Made by a program: the position numbers and the translations under genes. From a bacterium (GTDB taxonomy: Bacteria > Zhuqueibacterota > Zhuqueibacteria > Oceanimicrobiales > Oceanimicrobiaceae), in the NCBI GenBank assembly GCA_046757025.1, contig JBHHXN010000147.1, positions 1-13,248 on the forward strand: a stretch of 13,248 nucleotides of DNA, given 5' to 3'. The notes beneath the pieces are model-generated. The model worked only from the letters and a program-made list of their open reading frames with translations. It was not told where the DNA came from and did not search any database. Positions 1 to 13,248 of this stretch are shown one piece after another. Every line of letters begins with the position of its first letter. Within the stretch, counting starts at the first letter, position 1.

Positions 1-832
1 AACAGGTCACAATTTGTCCGCTCCAGGATAACGAAGCCCCTGACCGAGTCGGGCCGGTCTTGCCAAAATGTAATCCCACCGGCAGAACGTCGGCAGCGTT
101 CACGACGCCGTCATTGTTGGTGTCCCCGGGCCAAACGAAACAGCCACAGCGAATGGTGGTTTTAGCGGCTACCGGGGTTAAGTTAATGGCATTGCCAATT
201 GGGTCATTTGCTGAAATATTCGATAGAGACCAGTTTATGTCTGTCGGGTCTGGAGTATTCACCTGAGATACAAATTTTATCCACACGACCGCGCCGCTGC
301 CACTCACCCCTCCCTGACCAGACTTGCGGCTCACACCTACGCTTACCTTTCCGCTGGCGTCATCGGGTGTGGCAATAAATATCAGATCGCCGCCAAGAAA
401 GTTTCCGGGGCCGATTACAGGGTTGGTGGACTGGGCGGAGACATAATCGATGTAGGTGGTCTGGTAGGTTAAATCAAAACTAACGCCGAACAGAACCGTG
501 ACCGGGTCTGGATCGCCGACGTCCACCGCGACCCAGAATTCCTTTCCACATCGCGCGGTTGAGGGCGCGTCGGGTTTTATGGAAACCGCCTGGAGAGGAG
601 TAGAGGTAGTGGTATACCAGAAACCGATTAAATGAATGTGGGACGAGCTGCTTGATACCCCGATGACATCCTGCCCCAATGTTCCAACCATGCGGTAACT
701 GTTGTTGCTGATCACGGCACCCCCATTGCCAAGCACACTTTTCGACACAGCATATTGGGCTTCAGCAGGCTTCTGGAGCGTCAGGCCAGCAACAAAAGCC
801 ATCAGCGTCAAAGTTAATATTAGCTTTTCCAT
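1..832 (-). CDS. Secreted cohesin + dockerin-like domain protein, runs off the window (3' truncated)
   Basis: Not in the ORF track; translated by hand as 277 open codons from ATG 832, with SD GGAAGGAG at 840-847. Signal peptide MEKLILTLTLMAFVAGLTLQKPAEA|Q. N-domain QYAVSKSVLGNGG...VGTLGQ...LIGFWY (614-757). Cohesin-like region (GKEFWVAVDV, LFGVSFDLTY, GNFLG, GKVSVGVS, GVSGSGAVVWIKF). Dockerin-like Ca-loop WPGDTNNDGVVNAADV (~86-133). Confidence 0.85.
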   Translation of the reverse strand, partial: MEKLILTLTLMAFVAGLTLQKPAEAQYAVSKSVLGNGGAVISNNSYRMVGTLGQDVIGVSSSSSHIHLIGFWYTTTSTPLQAVSIKPDAPSTARCGKEFWVAVDVGDPDPVTVLFGVSFDLTYQTTYIDYVSAQSTNPVIGPGNFLGGDLIFIATPDDASGKVSVGVSRKSGQGGVSGSGAVVWIKFVSQVNTPDPTDINWSLSNISANDPIGNAINLTPVAAKTTIRCGCFVWPGDTNNDGVVNAADVLPVGLHFGKTGPTRSGASLSWSGQIVTC

Positions 833-903
833 GGGTATTCTCCTTCCAATCATCGTGGCAACAAGTCCACTATAAACTGATTTGTTCATAAGATCAGATC
901 TCT

Positions 904-982: not shown

Positions 983-2542
983 TCAATTCCCAATAACGGC
1001 ATTTCCATTTCGCCATCCCTTCAATGTAACCAGCGTATTGATAATCAATTTCTCAGGATAAAATCCACCGGCGATCCTTATGGTTCGCGGCGGTTCTATA
1101 ATGGCGTTTATCCCCTCGATGACTGTATTGAAAGGATTGGATTGTGAGCCATATTCAAAACCGTTGTTGGCCTGGTCAACGAAAATCGGCGGCATGCGAA
1201 CTTTGAAAGTCATCGTTGGACCTGCCGGTGAAATGTCATAGATTTCAATATAACTGGCGGTTGCATTCGTCCAGCCTGTATTTCTTGGAGTAGAAGTGGC
1301 CGTGAAATCATAACCCTGGACCTTATCGATTCCGTTCCAGAGAGCCAGGCTGTCATTGTGCCAGGTGGTTGGCCAATGTCCCTCCCGTCGAATGAGACGA
1401 ATGACTTTACGCAAATTGGTCTCATTTTCATTAACCAGCCAGACGGCCAGTCCCTGATCATCCAACGCCTCCTGGTTGCGATTTTCTAAAATGAAATATT
1501 CCTTATAAGGATCATTTTGGAGCGGATCGTAGATAATAATTGCTTCGGGCTGGCTATCCTGCAGCGGAAAAGTTCGCTCGGTCTCTGCATCATAAAGAGT
1601 GTAAGTCCCATCGTGGGTGACAATCAGTGGCTTGACGAAACCCAGGTGGATTTTAGCCCACGGATCTAAATGGAGAATGCGCCACTCCGGATACAGCGCC
1701 ATAAAACTATATGGCCCTGGCGGAGGCGGAAGCCAGTCGGTATTATTATTGACGAGATAACCATCTGCAACGTGCGTGTTAGGAGTCGCCTCGTACAAGT
1801 CTCCCAAGCCGAGAATCTGGTGGCCCAGCTCATGGGCCATGGTGCCAACATGCTCATGTTCAGTGGCAGCCGCGATTGCCTGGCTGACATTGAGCTTATT
1901 TCCTTCTACCGGCACCGGGCTGGGATTCGTGGCCCGGACGTTGGCGCCACCGCTGGCAGCTGCATTGACCAGAATAACAGCCAGCTCATCTTTGGTAATC
2001 ACGCTGTCGCCGTTGCCACGCGGCGGCATATCATAAATCGCATAATCGAATAGAGGGTCGGCAATTCTGATCGCTTCCGCACGTTTCTGCTGAATTTCGA
2101 TCAAATCACAGCAATAATCGCCATAGGTGGCTTGTGTGGTACGCCAGCCAATAATGCCGTCTTTTGTCCCATCTAGGTCGCCGTCCGTTGCCGGCACCAG
2201 CAGCAAACGCCCATTGGAGTTTTCTCTGTAAATTTCAGCAACACTTGGCCTGCCATTCGCCCGGTTCTGGCCAAAAAACAGATCATCAAAGTGAGCCACA
2301 TCGTGCGCCGCTTGATGTTGAACGTCTGTGAATTCCATCAGCACCACCAAAAGCGGGCGCTCGACCACGGTATTCTGATTGGCAAAAAGTTCAGGCGTTG
2401 TAATAGCGCCGTTAACACCAGGGTGTGGTTGGTTGGGATGGGCGAACTGGCGCCACAATTGTCCGTAGGCTGTGCGAACCAGTGACGAGTGCATTCCGGC
2501 AATCAGGATGATAGCTCCTATGAAAAAACGGTATCTTTGCAT
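983..2542 (-). CDS. Secreted M6 (immune inhibitor A-like) zinc metalloprotease with C-terminal DUF1565-like module
   Basis: PLLVVLMEFTD, SVAEIYRENSNG, zinc motif HELGHQILGLGDLY (HELGH at 1820-1834), Met-turn YSFMA, PWAKIHLGF, EYFILENR. ATG 2542 with GGAG at 2551-2554 gives signal peptide MQRYRFFIGAIILIAGMHSSLVRTAYG|Q; the track start at 2599 overlaps the upstream gene. Confidence 0.85.
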   Translation of the reverse strand: MQRYRFFIGAIILIAGMHSSLVRTAYGQLWRQFAHPNQPHPGVNGAITTPELFANQNTVVERPLLVVLMEFTDVQHQAAHDVAHFDDLFFGQNRANGRPSVAEIYRENSNGRLLLVPATDGDLDGTKDGIIGWRTTQATYGDYCCDLIEIQQKRAEAIRIADPLFDYAIYDMPPRGNGDSVITKDELAVILVNAAASGGANVRATNPSPVPVEGNKLNVSQAIAAATEHEHVGTMAHELGHQILGLGDLYEATPNTHVADGYLVNNNTDWLPPPPGPYSFMALYPEWRILHLDPWAKIHLGFVKPLIVTHDGTYTLYDAETERTFPLQDSQPEAIIIYDPLQNDPYKEYFILENRNQEALDDQGLAVWLVNENETNLRKVIRLIRREGHWPTTWHNDSLALWNGIDKVQGYDFTATSTPRNTGWTNATASYIEIYDISPAGPTMTFKVRMPPIFVDQANNGFEYGSQSNPFNTVIEGINAIIEPPRTIRIAGGFYPEKLIINTLVTLKGWRNGNAVIGN

Positions 2543-2564
2543 GATATATTCTCCGAAAATAACA

Positions 2565-3758
2565 TTAGTTACCGATGCGAACGGTTCCTCCCTTAGCAAC
2601 CAATCTTATGCGCTTGGAAAGAATTAACGATTCTGCGTAGGTACCTGCCTTGATACTGATTTGAGCCCCGTCCCAGGCCATCGCGTATGCCTCGACGACG
2701 GTATCGAACGGTTGATTGGGCTTTCCCCGTTCTGTTCCGCTGTACGCGTAGTTGACGTAAATCTTGTTGGTATAATGCCTGATATAGACGTCATCGCTTA
2801 TGTCATTATCGAGCAACAGAACATGGAGTTGCCCTGAAATGTTTGGCGCCCGGCCGTCGTCCAGATCCCAGATGGTAAGCCCTTCTGGTTCTTCGCATTG
2901 ACTGCTGCCAAATGGCGGACTGCAATCAGGGTCATAACCGTACCAGAACGGCTGCGCGCCATCCCTGGTGGATTTGATGATCCTGCGTTTCGTCTGCATG
3001 TCGAACACACTGATTCCGTCTTGGTGAGTATCATAATCGCCGAAATACCCATTATTCATATAGAGCAGTTTTCCACTCTCCGAGAATGTTGCGCCCTGAC
3101 CACCTATCAACAAAGGTGAGCCGGATTCGTCAAGGAGCCGCAATTCGCCAGCATATTGAAGAGACATGGTGCCATTCTGCGCCAAAGCGTGCCAGTCGAG
3201 ATCATAAATATATACCCATCCAGGCGCATCTTCATGAGGCGCATAAACCAGCCCATTCACATCCACGGCAACCCATGGCGCATTCCCTGGCTGGGACAAA
3301 TGCTGCGGCAACTTTAGAGTTGCATGAGCGATGTACTGAAGATTGTCGGGATTGAAAGCCGCTACGGCAGGGGGCACGGCTCTGTCCTTATCTTCCAGTG
3401 CAAGAAGTAGAAATCCGGTGGACTCGTTGTACTGGTAGTAGTCGATATCACCAACATGATTATAGGCATTTATACTATTCAGATTCCCACAAGCCACTCC
3501 GGAAACGCCGCAGGCTATGGGCCCGGCCAGGTCAAGGTTAACGGGTATTTTCCACAAACCCCACTCCTGGGAAATAAACCAGTTGTTTTTGTCGTGCGCC
3601 AAACCCTGGACGTTACCAGCGTAGTTTGTTTCCGCCTCATCGGGACGCGTGCTAGTGTAGTTAAAGTAGGATTCATACAAAGCCTGCGCCGCTGCCTCGT
3701 GCGGGGTTGCCAGTGGCGCAAGAACGCAAGCCAATACAAATGCCTTTGCTATTTTCAT
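2565..3758 (-). CDS. Secreted hypothetical protein, probable beta-propeller + C-terminal DUF1565-like module (paralogue B)
   Basis: ATG 3758 with SD GAGGAG; signal peptide MKIAKAFVLACVLAPLATPHEAAA|Q. Blade-like motifs VQGLAHD, HVGDIDY, PWVAVD, GQGATFS, EEPEG. Collinear with 5095..6381. The fold is inferred. Confidence 0.8.
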   Translation of the reverse strand: MKIAKAFVLACVLAPLATPHEAAAQALYESYFNYTSTRPDEAETNYAGNVQGLAHDKNNWFISQEWGLWKIPVNLDLAGPIACGVSGVACGNLNSINAYNHVGDIDYYQYNESTGFLLLALEDKDRAVPPAVAAFNPDNLQYIAHATLKLPQHLSQPGNAPWVAVDVNGLVYAPHEDAPGWVYIYDLDWHALAQNGTMSLQYAGELRLLDESGSPLLIGGQGATFSESGKLLYMNNGYFGDYDTHQDGISVFDMQTKRRIIKSTRDGAQPFWYGYDPDCSPPFGSSQCEEPEGLTIWDLDDGRAPNISGQLHVLLLDNDISDDVYIRHYTNKIYVNYAYSGTERGKPNQPFDTVVEAYAMAWDGAQISIKAGTYAESLILSKRIRLVAKGGTVRIGN

Positions 3759-3871
3759 CTTATCACTCCTCATTCTCAGGTGCTGGAGTTGAATCATTAC
3801 CGCCCACAGCAGATGTATCATGAAATATTTCGAATCCATTTTTGACTCGACTGCCTCTTTGGCTTTGCAAC

Positions 3872-5071
3872 CTAGCGGCGGATCAGCTTGTATTTCCCAT
3901 ACAGGCCCCAGTGGTCTGATGATTGATTGGTCGTCAAGCCATCTTCGCTCAGGGTGCGGCCGATAAACGGCAAGACTTCCACAGTTGTGGGGATGACCTC
4001 GACCGAGCCGGCGTGACTGGGGAGGTAGAAGATGTAGTCAAGGCGGCCGCTGACCGCTTCATCGTCGAAATACGTTGCCAGTGGATTGCAGTCGCAGTAC
4101 GTCGTATGTTGGGCGCCGGTAAAATCGAATCCCGGGCTGTTGCGATCCGAATCCCGGCCGCCGGCCTGAGCGCCCATTCGCGGAATGAGCACGTTGTAGT
4201 ACTCAGACTGCTCGCCGTACACATTGAAGTCGCCCATGGCAAATACCACGTGATCAGGATGCGAGGCTCGATAGTTGGCGATCGCGTCCCGGAGTTGGGC
4301 TATTTGTGCAGAACGCGCCTCGAGGTCGCTGCTGCTATAGTCTGCCTGGGTGTGCGTGTTGAACAAGCCAATGGCGAAGCCATTCTTGTAAATCGTCGCC
4401 TGCACCCAGCCTTTGGCCGCGTTTGGTTCAAAGGTACCTGCCTCCTCTTCATACTCCACCTGCGCAAAACCAACCAGGGGGTACTTGCTCATTAATGCAA
4501 GTCCCGAGTTGAGAATGTCTCCTTCTATGTCCCCGTGATCACCATGAGGGTATCCCGAGCGTGGACGGATTCCATTGGCGCCATCGCCGCCGAAAAACAG
4601 GTCTTCGTCCCAGATCTCTTGAAAACCGACAACATCCGGGCTGGGGTTAGGGCCGCCGAAAAAATCGGCGATGTCGTCCGCACGCTCATAATCTTGCCAG
4701 CTCGGCATGAATACCTCATCTCCGGCCAGGTGGGTATTCAGGATAATAATCTCCAGCGTCGTCGCCGCCTGATAGCCGAGCTTCCCGATGACAGCGCTGC
4801 CGCCGGCAGCCGTTAAAACAACCGGCGTGTCTGTCGTGAAGGTTTCGTAATACTTGCCGGCCGCGATTTCAACAGTGCGGGCCGGCGAAGTCAAAGTCCG
4901 GACAATGCCGGCTTCGACCATTTGATACGGTTTGGCCTGAGAGCCATCCGGATCGGGACTGCCGGCTTTCGTCACATAAATGGCGTTCTGGGCAATAGCA
5001 CTGGCTGACATCCCCAACAACAAAGGGACCGTCAGCTCTATGATGTTTAAATGATAGCGAAAGCTTTGCAT
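3872..5071 (-). CDS. Secreted EEP-superfamily phosphodiesterase (sphingomyelinase C-like) with N-terminal DUF1565-like module
   Basis: EEP motifs LNTHL, DVVGFQEIW, NSGLALMSKYP, KGW, FNTHTQA, GDFNV, RLDYIF, SDHWG. ATG 5071 with GGAG at 5081-5084 is preferred; ATG 5095 overlapping the upstream TGA is an alternative. Signal ...LLLGMSASAIA|Q. Substrate not determinable from sequence. Confidence 0.85.
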   Translation of the reverse strand: MQSFRYHLNIIELTVPLLLGMSASAIAQNAIYVTKAGSPDPDGSQAKPYQMVEAGIVRTLTSPARTVEIAAGKYYETFTTDTPVVLTAAGGSAVIGKLGYQAATTLEIIILNTHLAGDEVFMPSWQDYERADDIADFFGGPNPSPDVVGFQEIWDEDLFFGGDGANGIRPRSGYPHGDHGDIEGDILNSGLALMSKYPLVGFAQVEYEEEAGTFEPNAAKGWVQATIYKNGFAIGLFNTHTQADYSSSDLEARSAQIAQLRDAIANYRASHPDHVVFAMGDFNVYGEQSEYYNVLIPRMGAQAGGRDSDRNSPGFDFTGAQHTTYCDCNPLATYFDDEAVSGRLDYIFYLPSHAGSVEVIPTTVEVLPFIGRTLSEDGLTTNQSSDHWGLYGKYKLIRR

Positions 5072-5094
5072 ACTAAATTTCTCCAAAATGAACA

Positions 5095-6381
5095 TCAATT
5101 CCCGATTATGACCGTCCCTCCCTCGGCGATTAGCCTGATCCGTTTGGAGAGAATCAACGATTCCGGATAGAAGCCGGCCTTAATTTTCATTTGCGCGCCA
5201 TCCCAGATCGGGTAGTGATTGTAAGCCTTACTTATTGTTTTGAAAGGCTGAGAAGGCGACCCATACTCGTTGCCCGTATGGGCGTCATCAACATGGATGA
5301 TTCCGCTATAATGCTTGAGGTAAATTTCATCGGCACTCGCGTCATTATCCAGCAAAAGAACATGAAGTTGTCCTGTAATTCCCGGAGCTCTACCGTCGTC
5401 CAGGTCCCAGATGGTGCTCCCTTCCGGCTCTTCCGATTCACCAGGCCATGTGCCGGGGTTGAAGTCGTAATTGAAGTAGCCATAGCCGTCGGTGGAATGT
5501 GCTACTCTGCGCCCGGTTTGCATGTCAAAAACATTTATGCCATCGTGTGCATAATGGTCATCATAAAAACCAGTCACAATGTAGAGCAGGTTTCCACTTT
5601 CTGAGATCACCCCGCCCTGTATATGCGTGAGCGTGAGCGAATTGCCGGATTCATCGAGAAATGCGAATTCACCATTTGGCTGCAATTTCACCTGGTTTGG
5701 CACAAGATCCCATCTCAATTTGTATATCTCACATTTATTGACTTGCCAATCGGAGGTATATACGCGACCGTTGGGATCGATTGCACACCATCCCGCGCTT
5801 GTACCGCCACTCAACTCGGCATGTCCGACGAAACCGAGATCTCGGGCTCGAAAAACAGCCAAGAGCCCGGCTGGGCCTCTTGTTACCGGTATGACCAGAT
5901 ACACCTCGCCATCATGATTCTCATTTTTATAGTAGCTAAGATCGCCAAAATGATCGTAGCCTTTACTGGCAAGCTCGGGTATGTCATCGAGTGATATCCG
6001 TAGAACTCCCGGAGTATGGGGTGAGACGGAGCCAAGATTTTGAGTTACCGGAATTTTCCATAACGACCGTTCTGCAGGATCCTCATCGTCTGCGTCTGAT
6101 TGCGTGATAAACCAGTTGCTATCATCATGGGTTATCCCCTGAACGTCTTCATGGTATCCAGGATTGACATCGTTTGGATAATTGCCCAAATACAGAAAGT
6201 AGCTTTCGTAGCCATCCTGGGCAATGCCAATTCTCCAAAAGAGTGTTAGAAAAAGCGCTGTTATGGCGATTCCGGTTCGCGCTGCTAATTTATGGTTCAA
6301 TACTCCGAAATCCCGGTCGGTTCGTCGAAGCGATAGCAGCCACCCCCCTTGTCCGCTTGTATTTGTTGCCATTTCTCTCAT
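5095..6381 (-). CDS. Secreted hypothetical protein, probable beta-propeller + C-terminal DUF1565-like module (paralogue A)
   Basis: 428 aa ORF with YESYF, VQGITHD, LWKIPV, HFGDLSYY, IQGG, EEPEGSTIWDLDDGRAPGITGQLHVLLLDND. Hydrophobic stretch IAITALFLTLFWRIGIA|Q. Start uncertain: about 35 residues precede the h-region. Confidence 0.8.
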   Translation of the reverse strand: MREMATNTSGQGGWLLSLRRTDRDFGVLNHKLAARTGIAITALFLTLFWRIGIAQDGYESYFLYLGNYPNDVNPGYHEDVQGITHDDSNWFITQSDADDEDPAERSLWKIPVTQNLGSVSPHTPGVLRISLDDIPELASKGYDHFGDLSYYKNENHDGEVYLVIPVTRGPAGLLAVFRARDLGFVGHAELSGGTSAGWCAIDPNGRVYTSDWQVNKCEIYKLRWDLVPNQVKLQPNGEFAFLDESGNSLTLTHIQGGVISESGNLLYIVTGFYDDHYAHDGINVFDMQTGRRVAHSTDGYGYFNYDFNPGTWPGESEEPEGSTIWDLDDGRAPGITGQLHVLLLDNDASADEIYLKHYSGIIHVDDAHTGNEYGSPSQPFKTISKAYNHYPIWDGAQMKIKAGFYPESLILSKRIRLIAEGGTVIIGN

Positions 6382-6394
6382 GGTTCGCTCTCTC

Positions 6395-8035
6395 TTACTG
6401 CAACGTTACCAACACAAGGACAAGCCCTTTACCATGAGTCAGCGGGGTCATCGCCTTGCCGATGATGGCGCCGCTGGCTTGTGAGTGATCTGACACTTTC
6501 ATCGCGTGGCCGGGCGTTTCAGAAGTGGTTAGCAAATCGCCTACTTCAATGACGCCATTGGAAGCATCGGCATAGCAGTAGACGCGGCCTGTCAAAGCAA
6601 CCGGGTACTGTCCATCGGCTACTGAGCCGAATTGTCCCATGAGCATGCCCGGTTTAACGCCGCCCGCGCCGCTGATGATGCCCGCCACTTTGCGGTCATA
6701 AACCTGGCTGCTGACCACGAGCTTGCCGGGATTTTCCGCATCGATGGAGACCACCATGCCCGGCTGAATTTGTTGCTGAGCAGAATTAGCTCCGCCGACC
6801 TGATTCGCCACTACATCAAACTGTTCGGAGAGGTCTGAGCCGCCGGTTATCTCCAGGACTTTGGTGGTGGTCTTACCGTTCTCGTCAACCGTACAAACGT
6901 CATTCCCACCAGAATTTTTAACCCTGAAGACGCCATTTTCTCCACCATTATTGTCAAGCCTCACGATGACATCATAGTTGCTTGACAGGATCAAGACGCT
7001 GTTCGGAATGGATGGGTCGGTATTGATTCTTCCTATGATGCCGCCAAGACCCAGGTCAGCGTGGTCATTATCACTGGAGAAAAAGCCACCGAAATCGGTG
7101 GTCCCTTTTCCCCAAACCCCGTAGCCGCTGCCGGTACTCACGCCAAACACACCGTTGCCGTCGCTGTTGACGCCATATACTGCGGAAAAAAGCGAGCTAT
7201 TGTTGTGGCCCTCTATGGCGCCACCCCCACCTTCATTAACGCCGAATATCGCAGAGGTCAGGGCTGCGCTAGTTATGCCCCAAACAGCTTTGCCATCGAC
7301 GCTTCGTCCAAAGACGCCGGTGCCAAAACCATCGGCTGAGCCATGCACGCCGTAGCCTTCATGACTAAAGCCGCGTACACCAGCAGATTCTGTAAAAGGG
7401 CCCTCAGCGAACCCCATAAGGCCATGCAGGTTCAGACCTTCAAGAGCCGCTCCTGTCCCAAATTGGTGAACTTCAACCCCCCCGTCTTCACTTCCAACTT
7501 GCCCTTTGAAGGGCAAACTCAATCCTGTTGCCGCTGGTTTATCCCACACCACATTCGAACCGTTGTACATAAGAGCTTGACCGGCAGATGCGCCCGTTGT
7601 ATTAAGCTTTGACGTCGTAACCGCACCATCAGCAATTTTGTTGCTCGTCACAGCATTATCTACTATCGACCGCGCCTGCAAGCCATAAGCCGAGGCGGTA
7701 AGTTGTATCCGTGGCGAAAGCTCTGTGCCTGTGCCCACGGTGATGCCAAGCCAATAGGGTTTATCAAAAGGTCTGTTCAACGGATTCGCGCTTCCTAACC
7801 TCACATTGAAAATACCATGGCTTATAGCTGCAACCTGCGACTCAGACCAGATGGATGTTCCACCAGATGCCGCTTCGTACAGCTTGAAGGTCAGGGTGTA
7901 ATTGCCATCTGAGACCACGTTGCCACTAACATCGGTTAACACCCCCTGGTAACTGATGGTTTGAGGAACCTGCCCCCAAAGGAATGGCACAGTTAATACG
8001 GAAAACAGTGTGCAGAGAAAAAGTGTCCGATTCAT
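6395..8035 (-). CDS. Secreted tail-fibre-like protein with Gly-rich repeats and C-terminal peptidase G2-like intramolecular chaperone
   Basis: SD AAGGAGG at 8043-8049. Signal peptide then QVPQTISYQGVLTD...LTFKLY...GIFNVRLG. 10-aa repeats IVDNAVTSNK/IADGAVTTSK. (G/A)VxG repeats every ~10-12 aa (~7080-7480). C-domain GGSDLSEQF...PGMVVSID...GIISG...VALTGRV...GDLLTTS...IIGKAM. Confidence 0.75.
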   Translation of the reverse strand: MNRTLFLCTLFSVLTVPFLWGQVPQTISYQGVLTDVSGNVVSDGNYTLTFKLYEAASGGTSIWSESQVAAISHGIFNVRLGSANPLNRPFDKPYWLGITVGTGTELSPRIQLTASAYGLQARSIVDNAVTSNKIADGAVTTSKLNTTGASAGQALMYNGSNVVWDKPAATGLSLPFKGQVGSEDGGVEVHQFGTGAALEGLNLHGLMGFAEGPFTESAGVRGFSHEGYGVHGSADGFGTGVFGRSVDGKAVWGITSAALTSAIFGVNEGGGGAIEGHNNSSLFSAVYGVNSDGNGVFGVSTGSGYGVWGKGTTDFGGFFSSDNDHADLGLGGIIGRINTDPSIPNSVLILSSNYDVIVRLDNNGGENGVFRVKNSGGNDVCTVDENGKTTTKVLEITGGSDLSEQFDVVANQVGGANSAQQQIQPGMVVSIDAENPGKLVVSSQVYDRKVAGIISGAGGVKPGMLMGQFGSVADGQYPVALTGRVYCYADASNGVIEVGDLLTTSETPGHAMKVSDHSQASGAIIGKAMTPLTHGKGLVLVLVTLQ

Positions 8036-8684: not shown

Positions 8685-9314
8685 TCAAATCTCACCCCGA
8701 AGGGATTTGCTGATAACCTCAGCTTTGCAGTGGACATGCAGTTTTTTGTAGATGTTTTTAATGTGGGTGCGGACGGTTTCTATGGAGATGAACATGCGAT
8801 CGGCGATCATTTTATAACTCAAACCATCGACCAGTCCAATTACAATCTCTCTTTCTTTGTCGGTCAGGGGAGATTCAGAATTTTTAGACTTTTGTGGTTG
8901 GAAATACTCGATGACTTTGCGGGCAATTTGCGGCGTCATTGGAGCACCGCCAGCATATAAAACTTCTATTGCTTGTTTGATTTCCGCAAAAGGCCTGTTT
9001 TTTAATAGATACCCTGAAGCACCAGCACAAAGGGATTGGAATATTTTATGGGAATCATCATAGATGGTGAGCATGATAATGTCGATATCTGGAAATTTCT
9101 CCTTGATCAATTTGATGCCATCAATTCCAGACATTCCAGGCAAGCCTATATCCATGAGGATAACATCAGGAAAATTATCTTCATTGATTTTGACAATAAA
9201 TTTTTCTACAGAACCTTCAACCAGTTCACACAAAAATTCTTGTTGGTCATTTAAATATCCCTGAATGGCCTGGCACACCTCGTGGTCATCTTCTATTATC
9301 GCGACATTTATCAT
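8685..9314 (-). CDS. NarL/FixJ (LuxR-type HTH) response regulator
   Basis: REC domain IIEDD, DVILMDIGLPGMSG, IMLT, GASGYLLK. HTH LTDKEREIV...GLSYKMIADRMFISIETVRTHIKNIYKKLHV. Confidence 0.95.
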   Translation of the reverse strand: MINVAIIEDDHEVCQAIQGYLNDQQEFLCELVEGSVEKFIVKINEDNFPDVILMDIGLPGMSGIDGIKLIKEKFPDIDIIMLTIYDDSHKIFQSLCAGASGYLLKNRPFAEIKQAIEVLYAGGAPMTPQIARKVIEYFQPQKSKNSESPLTDKEREIVIGLVDGLSYKMIADRMFISIETVRTHIKNIYKKLHVHCKAEVISKSLRGEI

Positions 9315-9320
9315 GGTACA

Positions 9321-9349
9321 ATTATATCACATTTTTTGACAAGTGTAAA
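9321..9349 (-). promoter_or_regulatory. sigma70-type promoter of the response regulator (probably leaderless transcript)
   Basis: Minus strand TTTACA (9349-9344), 17 nt spacer, TATAAT (9326-9321) with extended TGn. Only 6 nt to ATG 9314, and no SD. Confidence 0.7.
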
Positions 9350-9366
9350 TCCCATGAATATGGGAT
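9349..9366. promoter_or_regulatory. Perfect 7-4-7 palindrome, candidate autoregulatory box
   Basis: ATCCCAT-gaat-ATGGGAT overlapping the first base of the -35 element. Confidence 0.65.
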
Positions 9367-9473
9367 AAATTGAGAATTCATCAACTGCTGATGCCATTTA
9401 TAAACCCAAATTAATGGCTTCCTGCTTTAAAAACTGCGGGAGAGACGACGGGGTGAATTGTTACGAAACTTTT

Positions 9474-12400
9474 TTACACCGCTTTCATTTTTAGAATCAC
9501 TTTTGTTTCGTCCTGGTGTGAAATTACTAAATCCGCTCTGAGCCGTTTTGCTCGCATGCGCATATTCTTCAATCCATTACCTACTCGTATTTTGCTTTCA
9601 TCAAATCCTTTTCCGTCGTCTGAAATCGTCAAATAAAATTCACTACCTTTATTATTTAAATGAATATGAACGTTTTTTGCAGACGAATGCCGGGCGATGT
9701 TATTAATGGTTTCTTTGAAAATCAAATATAAATTTTGTCGAATACCTGCGGGCAGGATTTTGGCACAATCCAGTCCATCTGATTGAAAAGTTACTTTGAT
9801 CTGTTTTGGTGAAAGCGTATTCATTGCAAAATCACGCATTCGATCGAGCAGGTCACCAATCGTATCGTTTCGGGAATCAATGGACCAGACGATATCGCTC
9901 ATGGTCGTGACAATCTCACGACTCATCTCGCCAATTTTTTTGGCAGAAGATAAGATTTTACTGTTCTCATTCGTTGTCTGTATGATTTCCGAATGTACAG
10001 CAATCTTTGTCAGAGTTGACCCGATGTCATCATGCAAATCACTAGCTAAGCGTGTGCGGATTCGCTCCAATTCCAGACGTCGAGATATCCGATAATTATG
10101 GAAAAGAATGATAGTACCTGCAATGGCAGCAAATAATAAGATTTGAAACCACCAGGTTTGCCAAAATGGTGGTGTGATTATGATTTTGATCGCAGTCCCG
10201 GTTTCATTCCAAACCCCATCATTATTTGAAGCCTTTACACGAAATATGTATTTCCCTGGATCAAGATTGGTGTAGGTAGCAAAACGCCGTGTTTCTGAAT
10301 AATACCAATCTTCATCGAAACCTTCCATTTTATATGCATACTCATTCTTCTCCGGACTATTATAATCCAACGCTGCAAACTCGAAGGAAAAAACATCATC
10401 TTTATAGGAAAGCACAATTTCATCAGTTTCAGAAATATGTTTTATTAAAGGTGTACTGCCGTCGGGAGAAATTTTTATGGTTTTGTTGGCGATTTGGAAA
10501 TCGGTAATTACTACAGGAGGGATAGTCGGATTATCTTCAATACTATCGGGATAAAAACTATTAAAACCATTAACACCCCCGAAGAACATCTCTCCGTTGC
10601 GACTATTAAAAAAGGCACCTCGATTGAATTCATTGCTTTGTAATCCGTCATACACATCATAATTTCGAAATGTTTTTGATTTCGGATTAAATTTTGACAC
10701 TCCTTTTTTCGTGCTCAGCCAAAGATTTCCGCTCGCATCCTCAAGGATACCGCAAATATTGTCATTGGGCAGTCCATCTTTTTCAGTATATCTATTAAAT
10801 CTCCTAGTTTTCGGATCGAATCGATTGAGTCCTCCTTCAGTACCAACCCAGATGGTTTCGGAGTTGTCTTCAAAAATACACTGCACAAAATTATTACTCA
10901 AACTTGTAGAATCATCGGGATTGTTTATCCAATGTGTAACTGTACCGGTTTCTCGATTGAATAAATTTATCCCACCGCCGCCGGTACCCAACCAGAGCCT
11001 TCCGGCTTGATCTTCATAAAAGCAACGAACATCGTTATTATTGAGTCCCTCACGTTTTCCAGCTTCATGGACAAAATGATTAAACATTACTTTTTTTTTG
11101 CCATCCCAAATCATTTGATTCAACCCGCCTGCATGCGTCCCTATCCACAAAACACTGCTACTATCGGTTGTATCTTCAAAAAAAGATAGGACATACTTTT
11201 GATTTAAACCTTTCCCGAAAACAGTGTGGATGCCGTAGGCGTAAGGCCAGGGGACGAACTTTTTCGTTTTCCGATCAAATTGAAGGAATTTACCGCCATA
11301 GGTTCCAAGCCAGAGTATCTTATATGAATCTTCAAAAATGGCGATGATGTTGTTGACTTGTGGATAATATATGTCTATGCCCAACCCCTCAATGTCTCCG
11401 CGTTGGCTAATCCAATGTTTAAATTTGCCGGTCTCGCGATCGAATTGATTTAATCCACCGCCGTAAGTTCCGATCCAAATAGCGCCGGATTCGTCTTCAT
11501 ATATAGCTCTGACATCATTATTGCTTAAACTACTGGAGTCACCAGTAACATATAGCCAATGCAAAAATCTATTCTCGGCGCCACGATTACGCCCAACCTT
11601 ACAAACGCCTCCGCCAGAAGTGCCAATCCAAAGAACACCGGCTCTATCTTCAAAAATGGTAGTGACTTCATTATCACTTAAACTGCTTGGTTTACCAGGT
11701 TCCGTCAACCATTGCGTAAAGATTGCTGTTTCTGGATTAAAACAATTGAGGCCGCCTCCATCCGTTGCAATCCAGAGCAGGCCTGAATTATCTACATATA
11801 GAGAATTGAGATAATTATTACTCAAACTTAATGGATTGTCTGATTCGTTTAACCAGTGGGTGAAGGTTTCTTTTTGCAAGTCGAATCGATTGAGACCGCC
11901 GCCATGTGTTCCCAGCCAGAGTACTTTTCTATATATATTCGCACTGTCCTCAGAAGATCGATTTGCACATATGGCATTTATCCAATCATTGCTCAAACTA
12001 TTGGGATTTCGAGGATCATGAATCCAATGTTTAAAGGTTTCTGTTTGAGGATCAAACCTGACCAGACCACCCCCTTCCGGTCCTAGCCAGAGCACATCAG
12101 ATTGGTCTGCATAAATACAAGCTATTGCATTGGATCTTACACTGTCAGGATTTTCGGGACCGTGGCGCCAATGTGTGAATTTTGTGGTTTCTGAATGCTG
12201 TTCTATGGTCGTTGAATCGGTACTTAATATGAGTCGGTTCAGCCCGCCGCCCTCCGTTCCGATCCAGAGCACATTTTTGTTGTACGGATCAACCAATAAA
12301 GATAATACATAATCGTCACTTAAACTGTAAGGATCGTTTTCTCGATGTCTGAAGGTGTTAAAAGAATCTGTTTCGCGATTAAAGCGTGCCAGACCGCCGC

Positions 12401-12731
12401 CGTAAGTACCAATCCACAGCGCACCAGATGTATCTTCAACAATTGCTCGAATTTCATTTCTGCTCAGACTCTTCGGATTATTGGAGTCATGTTTATAAGT
12501 CGTAAAGCGGTAGCCATCATATTTACTCAGTCCAGCATTTGTACCAAACCACATAAATCCTTTACTATCCTGAAAGATGCAATTAACAATACTTGGAGAT
12601 AAACCCTGATCATGGGTGAGGCGTTCAAATTTGAGCTTGAGGTTCTGGGCTATTCCCAAGCTGCTAAAAGAAAATAGTAAACAAACAGAAAGAAAGATTA
12701 TGCTCATTGAACGAATCAATTTTATTTGCAT
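9474..12731 (-). CDS. Sensor histidine kinase: Reg_prop beta-propellers, Y_Y_Y, TM, HisKA_3, HATPase
   Basis: Many LWIGTxGGGL / SLSxNxV repeats. Y_Y_Y: YAYKMEGFDEDW...YTNLDPGKYIFRVKASNNDG. TM WWFQILLFAAIAGTIILF. H-box RLASDLHDDIG, N-box ETINNIARHS, DDGKGF, GNGLKNMRMRA. Confidence 0.95.
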   Translation of the reverse strand: MQIKLIRSMSIIFLSVCLLFSFSSLGIAQNLKLKFERLTHDQGLSPSIVNCIFQDSKGFMWFGTNAGLSKYDGYRFTTYKHDSNNPKSLSRNEIRAIVEDTSGALWIGTYGGGLARFNRETDSFNTFRHRENDPYSLSDDYVLSLLVDPYNKNVLWIGTEGGGLNRLILSTDSTTIEQHSETTKFTHWRHGPENPDSVRSNAIACIYADQSDVLWLGPEGGGLVRFDPQTETFKHWIHDPRNPNSLSNDWINAICANRSSEDSANIYRKVLWLGTHGGGLNRFDLQKETFTHWLNESDNPLSLSNNYLNSLYVDNSGLLWIATDGGGLNCFNPETAIFTQWLTEPGKPSSLSDNEVTTIFEDRAGVLWIGTSGGGVCKVGRNRGAENRFLHWLYVTGDSSSLSNNDVRAIYEDESGAIWIGTYGGGLNQFDRETGKFKHWISQRGDIEGLGIDIYYPQVNNIIAIFEDSYKILWLGTYGGKFLQFDRKTKKFVPWPYAYGIHTVFGKGLNQKYVLSFFEDTTDSSSVLWIGTHAGGLNQMIWDGKKKVMFNHFVHEAGKREGLNNNDVRCFYEDQAGRLWLGTGGGGINLFNRETGTVTHWINNPDDSTSLSNNFVQCIFEDNSETIWVGTEGGLNRFDPKTRRFNRYTEKDGLPNDNICGILEDASGNLWLSTKKGVSKFNPKSKTFRNYDVYDGLQSNEFNRGAFFNSRNGEMFFGGVNGFNSFYPDSIEDNPTIPPVVITDFQIANKTIKISPDGSTPLIKHISETDEIVLSYKDDVFSFEFAALDYNSPEKNEYAYKMEGFDEDWYYSETRRFATYTNLDPGKYIFRVKASNNDGVWNETGTAIKIIITPPFWQTWWFQILLFAAIAGTIILFHNYRISRRLELERIRTRLASDLHDDIGSTLTKIAVHSEIIQTTNENSKILSSAKKIGEMSREIVTTMSDIVWSIDSRNDTIGDLLDRMRDFAMNTLSPKQIKVTFQSDGLDCAKILPAGIRQNLYLIFKETINNIARHSSAKNVHIHLNNKGSEFYLTISDDGKGFDESKIRVGNGLKNMRMRAKRLRADLVISHQDETKVILKMKAV

Positions 12732-12947: not shown

Positions 12948-13248
12948 CTATTTCAAAAACATCATTTTGCGTGTTGCCGTAAACTCACCAACATGCACCG
13001 TGTAAAAATAAAGTCCGGAGGAAAGCCACTCGCCCTGATTATTTTTTCCATCCCACAGCACTGAATAAACACCCGGAGCTTTGTCCTCATCCATTAAAGT
13101 GCGCATAATTTGTCCCTTGATGTTATAAATTTTCAAGCTGACCTTCACTCCACCGATATATTTCCTGGGCACTGTGAAGTTAATTGTTGTGGTTGGATTA
13201 AACGGATTGGGATAATTCTGGGACAGCGTAAAGGTTTCTGGTGCTGCG
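12948..13248 (-). CDS. C-terminus of a T9SS type A sorting / FlgD-Ig domain protein (5' truncated)
   Basis: Frame is open to the window edge: AAPETFTLSQNYPNPFNPTTTINFTVP...VSLKIYNIKGQIMRTL...GVYSVLWDGKNNQGEWLSSGLYFY...TRKMMFLK*. Confidence 0.9.
   Translation of the reverse strand, partial: AAPETFTLSQNYPNPFNPTTTINFTVPRKYIGGVKVSLKIYNIKGQIMRTLMDEDKAPGVYSVLWDGKNNQGEWLSSGLYFYTVHVGEFTATRKMMFLK

What the first reader, a model, noticed from the sequence alone, without database searches (positions are those of the whole stretch)
986..5298. Same stand-alone ~65 aa module on four adjacent proteins of three different families, ending IGN/IGK
Seen: copies at 986-1186 (IFVDQANNGFEYGSQSNPFNTV..IRIAGGFYPE..NAVIGN*), 2568-2762 (IYVNYAYSGTERGKPNQPFDTV..ISIKAGTYAE..TVRIGN*), 5098-5298 (IHVDDAHTGNEYGSPSQPFKTI..KIKAGFYPE..TVIIGN*) and, N-terminally, 4781-4981 (IYVTKAGSPDPDGSQAKPYQMV..VEIAAGKYYE..SAVIGK). 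Established: YV...GSxxxPFxTI...GxYxE (DUF1565-like) normally caps the start of right-handed beta-helix proteins. Here no beta-helix follows. Inference: the cap has been reused as a portable docking, oligomerisation or sorting tag, possibly complementing a beta-solenoid in trans. Its use at either terminus favours a binding module over a C-terminal secretion signal.
Basis: partly seen in the sequence, partly recalled or inferred. Interest (0 to 1): 0.8.

Follow-up and report, generated by a model that had tools for sequence, protein, structure and literature searches.

The report
Enzymes docked on bacterial fibre tips
Four neighbouring, likely secreted proteins share a 65-residue tag that in many bacterial groups is carried by the gene right after a phage-like fibre gene, and the tag is predicted to plug onto the fibre's tip once the fibre has likely cut off its own chaperone, so these bacteria would display swappable enzymes, mostly proteases, on the ends of surface fibres.

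Summary
Observation confirmed: four copies (25-63% identical) of a beta-helix N-cap plus one rung, with no beta-helix after it. In loci picked by the chaperone alone, the next gene carries the tag in 50-60 of 73 (GTDB, many phyla) and 59 of 64 (metagenomes, held-out profile); cargoes are mostly unrelated proteases (46 of 77). A model of three cleaved fibre tips plus one tag scores 0.84 against a best control of 0.00 (mark reached by 116 of 157 solved and 2 of 215 mismatched pairs): three strands of the tag's open rung each pair with one fibre chain. Best reading: a bacterial enzyme-display system, anchor - trimeric fibre - one swappable enzyme per tip. It works like phage S16 gp37-gp38 but uses unrelated parts. 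Cleavage, binding and display are predicted, not shown. The scan noted the fibre-plus-tagged-enzyme pairing before on other DNA; tip docking is what I tested here. Not found in print in seven searches.

The parts
6395..8035 (-). P0005, 546-aa fibre precursor: likely signal peptide, MAT-like N-terminal domain, Gly-rich repeats, tip, C-terminal chaperone
   Evidence: NF053851 21.7 bits, below cut-off 60; only gene with this chaperone found in the genome
6836..6862 (-). Fibre tip K392-S400; predicted last strand of the mature trimer and docking surface
   Evidence: L394, I396, G398, G399 conserved in 90% or more of 63 rows; interface residues in all three chains
6398..6835 (-). G2-type (phi29 gp12 D4-like) intramolecular chaperone D401-Q546; predicted cut S400|D401
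   Evidence: D401 and E404 invariant in 92 rows; model pLDDT 93.1; top hits 3SUC E 4.9e-4 and 3GQH Z 12.2, aligned range starting at D401 and residue 692
5095..6381 (-). P0004, propeller-like cargo; tag at 5098-5298 (C-terminal)
   Evidence: its tag is the one modelled with the tip
3872..5098 (-). P0003, EEP-family phosphodiesterase-like cargo (likely start 5071); tag at 4781-4981 (N-terminal)
   Evidence: PF03372 E 3.8e-14; TIGR03395 sphingomyelinase below cut-off
2565..3839 (-). P0002, propeller-like cargo (likely start 3758); tag at 2568-2762 (C-terminal)
983..2599 (-). P0001, M6-like zinc metalloprotease cargo (likely start 2542); tag at 986-1186 (C-terminal)
   Evidence: TIGR03296 E 6.1e-20; zinc motif at 1799-1834
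2..889 (-). P0006, candidate anchor: conserved ~50-aa N-terminal domain (614-757), weak dockerin-like repeat; runs off the contig
   Evidence: PF00404 E 0.014; related N-terminal domain on 28 ORFs in 27 of 160 fibre loci; anchor role inferred

Best explanation
The 65-residue module is a beta-helix N-cap with one open rung, carried by unrelated enzymes encoded next to a fibre gene, and it is predicted to dock one enzyme onto the tip of the trimeric fibre after the fibre likely cuts off its own chaperone. Steps: (1) fibre and cargoes are exported with signal peptides (inferred from sequence); (2) the G2-type chaperone trimerises the fibre and is cut at S400|D401 (inferred from the fold match to phi29 gp12); (3) three exposed 'VLEIT' strands are left at the tip, and the tag's triangular last rung, with a pseudo-threefold of three strands, pairs head-to-head with them, one strand per chain (modelled); (4) the fibre base is held at the cell surface, probably by the P0006-type protein (inferred, weakest step). 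One tip takes one tag, so this operon would make a mixed population of fibres, each tipped with one of four proteins, likely to digest protein and other polymers at a distance from the cell.
For: Gene linkage from the fibre side: next gene tagged in 50 of 73 evaluable GTDB chaperone genes with the 9-row profile, 60 of 73 with the iterated one, and 59 of 64 metagenome genes with a profile not trained on them. From the tag side: all 4 stand-alone copies in this genome follow its single G2 fibre; in complete chromosome G168 all 5 full G2 fibres are followed by a tagged gene, the 7 best tag hits all lie behind them, and 5 S74 fibres have none. Chaperone tree: 147 of 166 evaluable rows tagged inside one clade, 0 of 18 outside. 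A sub-clade of 11 with a different tip (LGxGL|D) has a different tail on the next gene. Tag is terminal (2 or fewer residues after) in 50 of 70 hits. Interface positions 53, 57, 59, 66, 68 are hydrophobic in 87-100% of 63 rows. Complex model: 0.84/0.84/0.83, best of 3 controls 0.00; mark reached by 116 of 157 solved and 2 of 215 mismatched pairs; runs agree in at least 87% of contacts; partner pLDDT at least 87.
Against: No experiment. Loci were the best matches to five seed fibres that I had found through the tag, so the rates hold for this clade only; near-duplicate loci are in the counts. 19 of 166 evaluable in-clade fibres have no detected tag on the next gene. L094 and L096 carry the tag behind an S74 fibre with a different tip, and that cargo has its own T9SS-type tail. 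The tip/tail switch is one evolutionary event. The chaperone is below the Pfam G2 cut-off and ties in fold with a capsid decoration protein (Z 11.9). The anchor domain was detected in only 27 of 160 loci.
Confidence: 0.7

Rival explanations
1. The tag binds the fibre tip only transiently, as a hitch-hiking export or sorting signal; the enzyme is released outside the cell.
For: None of the four window cargoes has a T9SS-type C-terminal domain; most tags are terminal like sorting signals. The linkage and the model fit this equally.
Against: Some cargoes carry both the tag and their own sorting-type tail (L094, L177, L180 T9SS-type, L116 Soli_cterm). A released tag would expose a hydrophobic rung.
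Confidence: 0.12
2. The tag binds the chaperone domain or the uncleaved precursor rather than the cleaved tip.
For: The chaperone is unusually conserved (50-71% identity to the window copy across phyla), and some fibres are only 260-280 aa, little more than tip plus chaperone (L033, L034, L090, L091). Not modelled.
Against: The cleaved tip alone gives a confident, symmetry-matched interface; tail type changes with tip sequence.
Confidence: 0.08
3. The module is an independent substrate- or surface-binding appendage, and the gene order only reflects co-regulated operons of secreted proteins.
For: It folds alone in the model (pLDDT 92.6); a few tagged genes lie upstream of, or opposite to, the fibre gene (8 of 82 tagged ORFs, 5 of 73).
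Against: It follows one chaperone clade and not S74 or other G2 fibres in the same genomes; conserved positions are an inward-type hydrophobic pattern, not a ligand pocket; complex model.
Confidence: 0.07
4. The module is a functionless remnant of a truncated beta-helix.
For: Homology to ordinary caps: 25,466 representative proteins match the profile and the best 150 are long proteins (850-7527 aa) with several matches each.
Against: Same end point on at least ten unrelated peptidase families in many phyla and tight linkage to one partner.
Confidence: 0.03

Closest known systems
T-even phage long tail fibre tip, Salmonella phage S16 gp37-gp38 (PDB 6F45; PMC6851490 and PMC7917993, passages read)
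   Same: Homotrimeric beta-helix fibre whose C-terminal chaperone is autocleaved, exposing a surface on which one separately encoded protein from the next gene docks (3:1).
   Different: gp38 docks by three Trp prongs on an alpha-helical N-terminal domain; here beta-strand pairing by a beta-helix cap is predicted. S16 cuts at S^SDRRIK (S74-like); here a G2-type GGS|DLSE site. Cellular, not phage; cargoes are many unrelated enzymes and the tag works at either terminus.
phi29 gp12 appendage with C-terminal D4 chaperone (Pfam Peptidase_G2; PDB 3SUC, 3GQH)
   Same: Fold of the chaperone (Z 12.2, rmsd 2.9, 111 aligned), aligned range starting at D401 and gp12 residue 692, D-x-x-E motif.
   Different: Below the Pfam cut-off, shorter, in bacterial secreted fibres; no tip-docked partner is known to me for gp12 (recalled).
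Bdellovibrio MAT fibres (Caulton 2024, PMC10769870, passages read)
   Same: Chromosomal, signal-peptide-bearing trimeric phage-like fibres with a conserved N-terminal domain and variable tips; weak NF053851 match.
   Different: MATs have S74 chaperones or adhesive tips in the same chain; no separately encoded tip protein in the passages seen.
DUF1565 / N-terminal cap of right-handed beta-helices (Pel9A 1RU4, pectin methylesterases, phage 7-7-1 tail fibre 9RKV 183-251)
   Same: Fold and sequence pattern of the module.
   Different: No beta-helix follows; the chain stops after one rung, which is predicted to be closed in trans.
Cellulosome cohesin-dockerin (recalled)
   Same: Logic of a small portable tag that loads unrelated hydrolases on a surface scaffold.
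   Different: Unrelated domains; predicted one cargo per fibre tip; mostly proteases.

Membership tests
DUF1565 / beta-helix N-cap | Cap fold (strand, loop, helix, first rung) | tested here: met
   AF2 pLDDT 92.6; 9rkv_M Z 8.2, rmsd 2.1, 67 aligned; Pel9A Z 4.9; Atlas TM 0.79-0.87
DUF1565 / beta-helix N-cap | Pfam PF07602 cut-off | tested here: not met
   best E 0.053 in 2 of 4 copies
DUF1565 / beta-helix N-cap | Followed by a beta-helix in the same chain | tested here: not met
   stop codon follows in 3 copies, EEP domain in the fourth; no Beta_helix/NosD hit at E 1e-6 in 77 tagged proteins scanned
Peptidase G2 intramolecular chaperone (phi29 gp12 D4) | D4 fold at the C-terminus of a fibre | tested here: met
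   3SUC top Foldseek hit E 4.9e-4; 3GQH Z 12.2, tied with decoration protein 8qsy Z 11.9
Peptidase G2 intramolecular chaperone (phi29 gp12 D4) | D-x-x-E at the start of the released fragment | tested here: met
   D401, E404 invariant in 92 rows; aligned range starts at D401 and residue 692 of 3GQH; that E695 is catalytic is recalled
Peptidase G2 intramolecular chaperone (phi29 gp12 D4) | Pfam PF11962 cut-off | tested here: not met
   15 of 92 rows match at E up to 1, best 0.006; window copy none
Peptidase G2 intramolecular chaperone (phi29 gp12 D4) | Autocleavage after trimerisation | not testable with these tools
   needs protein work
T-even gp37-gp38 fibre tip | One protein capping a trimer tip | tested here: inconclusive
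   predicted only: 0.84, best control 0.00, mark reached by 116 of 157 solved and 2 of 215 mismatched pairs
T-even gp37-gp38 fibre tip | Alpha-helical attachment domain with three Trp prongs | tested here: not met
   module is a beta-helix cap; modelled interface is its residues 42 and 48-70; gp38 features from PMC6851490
T-even gp37-gp38 fibre tip | Encoded in a phage tail module | tested here: not met
   no phage structural genes among the window's long ORFs; IMG/VR gave 2 weaker (46%) chaperone relatives, both outside the tagged clade
Bdellovibrio MAT fibres | Conserved ~130-aa N-terminal domain (NF053851) | tested here: inconclusive
   21.7 bits, E 1.4e-4, cut-off 60, partial
Bdellovibrio MAT fibres | S74 chaperone (SDxxxK) or adhesive tip in the same chain | tested here: not met
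   P0005 has no PF13884 match and ends in a G2-type domain
T9SS C-terminal sorting signal | TIGR04183-type domain at the extreme C-terminus | tested here: not met
   no such hit in P0001-P0004; tag also N-terminal or internal
Cellulosome cohesin-dockerin | Dockerin on enzymes, cohesins on scaffold | tested here: not met
   no dockerin or cohesin hit on P0001-P0005; only a weak dockerin-like repeat on P0006

The most novel reading that the evidence does not exclude
A widespread, undescribed bacterial surface machine: anchored trimeric fibres whose self-cleaved tips are sockets for interchangeable enzymes, joined by a split beta-solenoid (one triangular rung closing a three-chain prism), with at least two and perhaps three tip/tag codes (cap tag, LGxGL-type tail, 3-coathanger stack).
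Probability: 0.65. Interest if true: 0.9.

Novelty: categorically new. Interest (0 to 1): 0.82.

Why it matters
It would give a function to a large unannotated gene pair found in KSB1, Planctomycetota, Verrucomicrobiota, Acidobacteriota, Bacteroidota, Calditrichota, Chloroflexota and others (record titles), and describe a 'protease-on-a-stalk' display system comparable in logic to the cellulosome. It adds a new way of solving a 3:1 symmetry mismatch, explains a stand-alone DUF1565-like cap, suggests a role for the orphan 3-coathanger stack domain, and offers a 65-residue tag with a 9-residue trimer socket that can be tested with two small recombinant proteins. The assembly logic has a phage precedent (gp37-gp38); the parts, host range and enzyme cargo do not match it.

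Tried and rejected
Word-based homologue search with the tag found only 2 proteins among 29 candidates. The search of 1.84 billion representatives was swamped by long multi-match proteins, so the tag-to-fibre direction was tested only in this genome, KSB1-group relatives and five other genomes. Pattern scanning with the tag alignment was not possible. Sequence search of the PDB with chaperone profiles found no gp12; the link came from folds. No RNA holder was listed. The primary gp12 paper (Xiang 2009) is not held; PMC8326128 and PMC12917162 (passages) added nothing on the G2 site. Paper searches (listings only) for gp12/chaperone (46), gp37/gp38 (47), coathanger (57), MAT (74), DUF1565 (103), Peptidase G2 (104) and chaperone-fibre-protease-docking (131) showed no description of this arrangement; most subscription journals are not in the library, and the supplementary tables of PMC10769870 on MAT-like proteins in other bacteria were not opened. 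Rejected: C-terminal secretion signal of T9SS type (tag at either end; cargoes with both); prophage remnant; chance similarity.
Full report
Observation. The window is the whole contig C147 of a 5.96-Mb genome; a genome of the same family is titled candidate division KSB1 (L144 = G011). Six genes run on the minus strand with short gaps: P0005 (6395-8035), P0004, P0003, P0002, P0001 and P0006, which runs off the end. A profile with no window row finds all four at E 7e-19 to 1e-8 among 75,168 six-frame ORFs; its four other hits in the genome are followed by 653-1266 further residues that read as beta-helix by eye. The carriers are an M6-like metalloprotease, an EEP-family enzyme and two paralogous propeller-like proteins. 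Signal peptides were judged by eye.

What the module is. Sequence matches to DUF1565 and to pectin methylesterase and phage tail-spike caps are weak. An AF2 model from 63 rows has pLDDT 92.6 and matches beta-helix N-caps: 9RKV residues 183-251 Z 8.2, Pel9A Z 4.9, with the same families at the top of Foldseek though none at E 0.001. It is a cap plus one rung that stops where the solenoid would go on.

The partner. Searching 60 relatives gave stand-alone copies in G048, G011 and G058. In all five loci the gene or gene run was preceded by a fibre gene with the same C-terminal domain as P0005; this genome has one such gene. I then reversed the test and took loci by that domain alone. GTDB, best 80 of 582 confirmed stretches: 83 chaperone genes, 1 dropped as cut, 9 more not evaluable; the next same-strand gene carried the tag in 50 of 73 with the 9-row profile (one locus repeats a training row) and 60 of 73 with the iterated, partly circular profile; of 82 tagged ORFs, 2 were on the other strand and 6 upstream of every chaperone gene. 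Metagenomes, best 80 of 519: 82 genes, 18 not evaluable, 59 of 64 tagged with a profile not trained on them; some loci are near-duplicates of each other or of GTDB loci. IMG/VR gave two weak relatives only. In the complete chromosome G168 all 5 full-length chaperone fibres are followed by a tagged gene, the 7 best tag hits lie behind them and 5 S74 fibres have none; the 3 S74 fibres of this genome have none either. Of 145 tagged ORFs I scanned 77 against Pfam: 46 peptidases of ten families (C10 10, astacin 10, reprolysin 8, S8 5, trypsin 5, M4 2, C1 2, M43 2, C11 1, M23 1), 3 beta-lactamase-like, 4 sortilin-type propellers, 4 others, 20 without a family, none with a beta-helix family.

The fibre end. 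The domain's model (pLDDT 93.1) has pre-mature phi29 gp12 as top Foldseek hit and the gp12 C-terminal fragment as top structural match, Z 12.2, the aligned range starting at D401 and residue 692, tied with a capsid decoration protein at Z 11.9. D401 and E404 are invariant in 92 rows. [quoted passage not shown] So a cut at S400|D401 is inferred. Pfam G2 matches stay below cut-off. The fibres vary widely upstream but keep a VLxITGG end.

Tip and tail change together. A tree of 211 distinct chaperones has one clade of 191 rows (support 0.69, midpoint root): 137 cap-tagged, 10 with a second tail type, 19 untagged, 25 not evaluable; outside it 0 of 18 evaluable rows are tagged. Eleven fibres with an LGxGL|D end form one nested clade (support 1.0); 10 have a different beta-rich tail on the next gene (9 trained that profile, L101 was found by it) and L099 has the cap tag with a short extra tail of that look. 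This is one event, so it is suggestive only. L170 has a standard tip followed by a 3-coathanger stack domain (NF045639, 29.8 bits, cut-off 26). Against: L094 and L096 carry the tag behind an S74 fibre.

Complex model. Three copies of P0005 321-400 with the P0004 tag scored 0.84, 0.84, 0.83, best of three controls 0.00; the mark was reached by 116 of 157 solved and 2 of 215 mismatched pairs, counts that hold only roughly for this job; runs agree in at least 87% of contacts, partner pLDDT at least 87. All three chains touch through residues 392-400; tag residues about 49-53, 58-61 and 66-68 each meet a different chain, and the closest pairs run in antiparallel order (my reading of the pair list). 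Tag positions 53, 57, 59, 66 and 68 are hydrophobic in 87-100% of rows. The model supports binding; it does not show it, and the other three tags, the uncleaved fibre and the chaperone were not modelled.

Third part. The N-terminal domain of P0006 recurs on 28 ORFs in 27 of 160 loci, with tails that look by eye like T9SS-type, dockerin-like, verrucomicrobial and PGF-CTERM-like surface signals (T9SS type confirmed for two). It also follows untagged fibres. I infer an anchor for the fibre base; this step is untested.

Comparison. [quoted passage not shown] This system would work alike but is not a member: other chaperone, other docking fold, cellular genes, enzyme cargo. MAT fibres are the nearest bacterial fibres, with tips in the same chain (PMC10769870, passages). 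Seven paper searches showed no description (listings). The scan's earlier notes e1-2930621, e1-3770683 and e1-5121991 report the same fibre-plus-tagged-enzyme pairing on other DNA; I saw them after my counts and after handing in the complex job, and they are not independent evidence.

Verdict. Real, widespread and most likely a tip-docking tag for enzyme display on self-cleaving bacterial fibres: docking to the tip in some form about 0.8, stable display 0.7. Interest 0.82.

Noticed in passing
window 8685-12731 (-): LuxR-type response regulator and propeller/Y_Y_Y histidine kinase upstream of the fibre on the same strand; a regulator-kinase pair also precedes the fibre in L087. GC drops from 46-57% in the operon to 34-44% here.
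   Followed up: no
window 614-757 (-); L112, L146, L169, L233, L135 and others: A ~50-aa domain (GGG...GQ...GFW) fused to lineage-typical surface-sorting tails beside fibre genes; one (L233) ends in a PGF-CTERM-like tail by eye, hinting at an archaeal copy.
   Followed up: partly
L170:9640-10638: A 3-coathanger stack domain (NF045639) takes the place of the tag behind a standard tip; it may be a third docking domain.
   Followed up: partly
L201-L205, L207-L209, L101, L102, L099: A second, unannotated C-terminal tail ending in G.I.L.NGG.I.F behind fibres with LGxGL|D tips.
   Followed up: partly
L094:6513-9191, L096:6524-9218: Tag behind a short S74-type fibre, on a protein that also has a T9SS-type tail; not explained by the tip code.
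   Followed up: partly
L033:5709-6524, L034:8170-8997, L090, L091: Mini-fibres of 260-280 aa lacking the usual N-terminal domain, still followed by a tagged metalloprotease.
   Followed up: no
window 6398-6835 (-): The chaperone fold is shared with phage capsid decoration proteins and the phi29 gp8.5 base.
   Followed up: no
L199, L211, L104, L088: Extra broken or partial copies of the chaperone gene in tandem beside fibre genes.
   Followed up: no
window 12948-13247 (-): 3' end of a gene with a T9SS-type C-terminal domain by eye.
   Followed up: no
G068, G069 (L212-L214): Two genomes hold 9-10 distant chaperone-fibre matches each; those examined have no tagged neighbour.
   Followed up: partly
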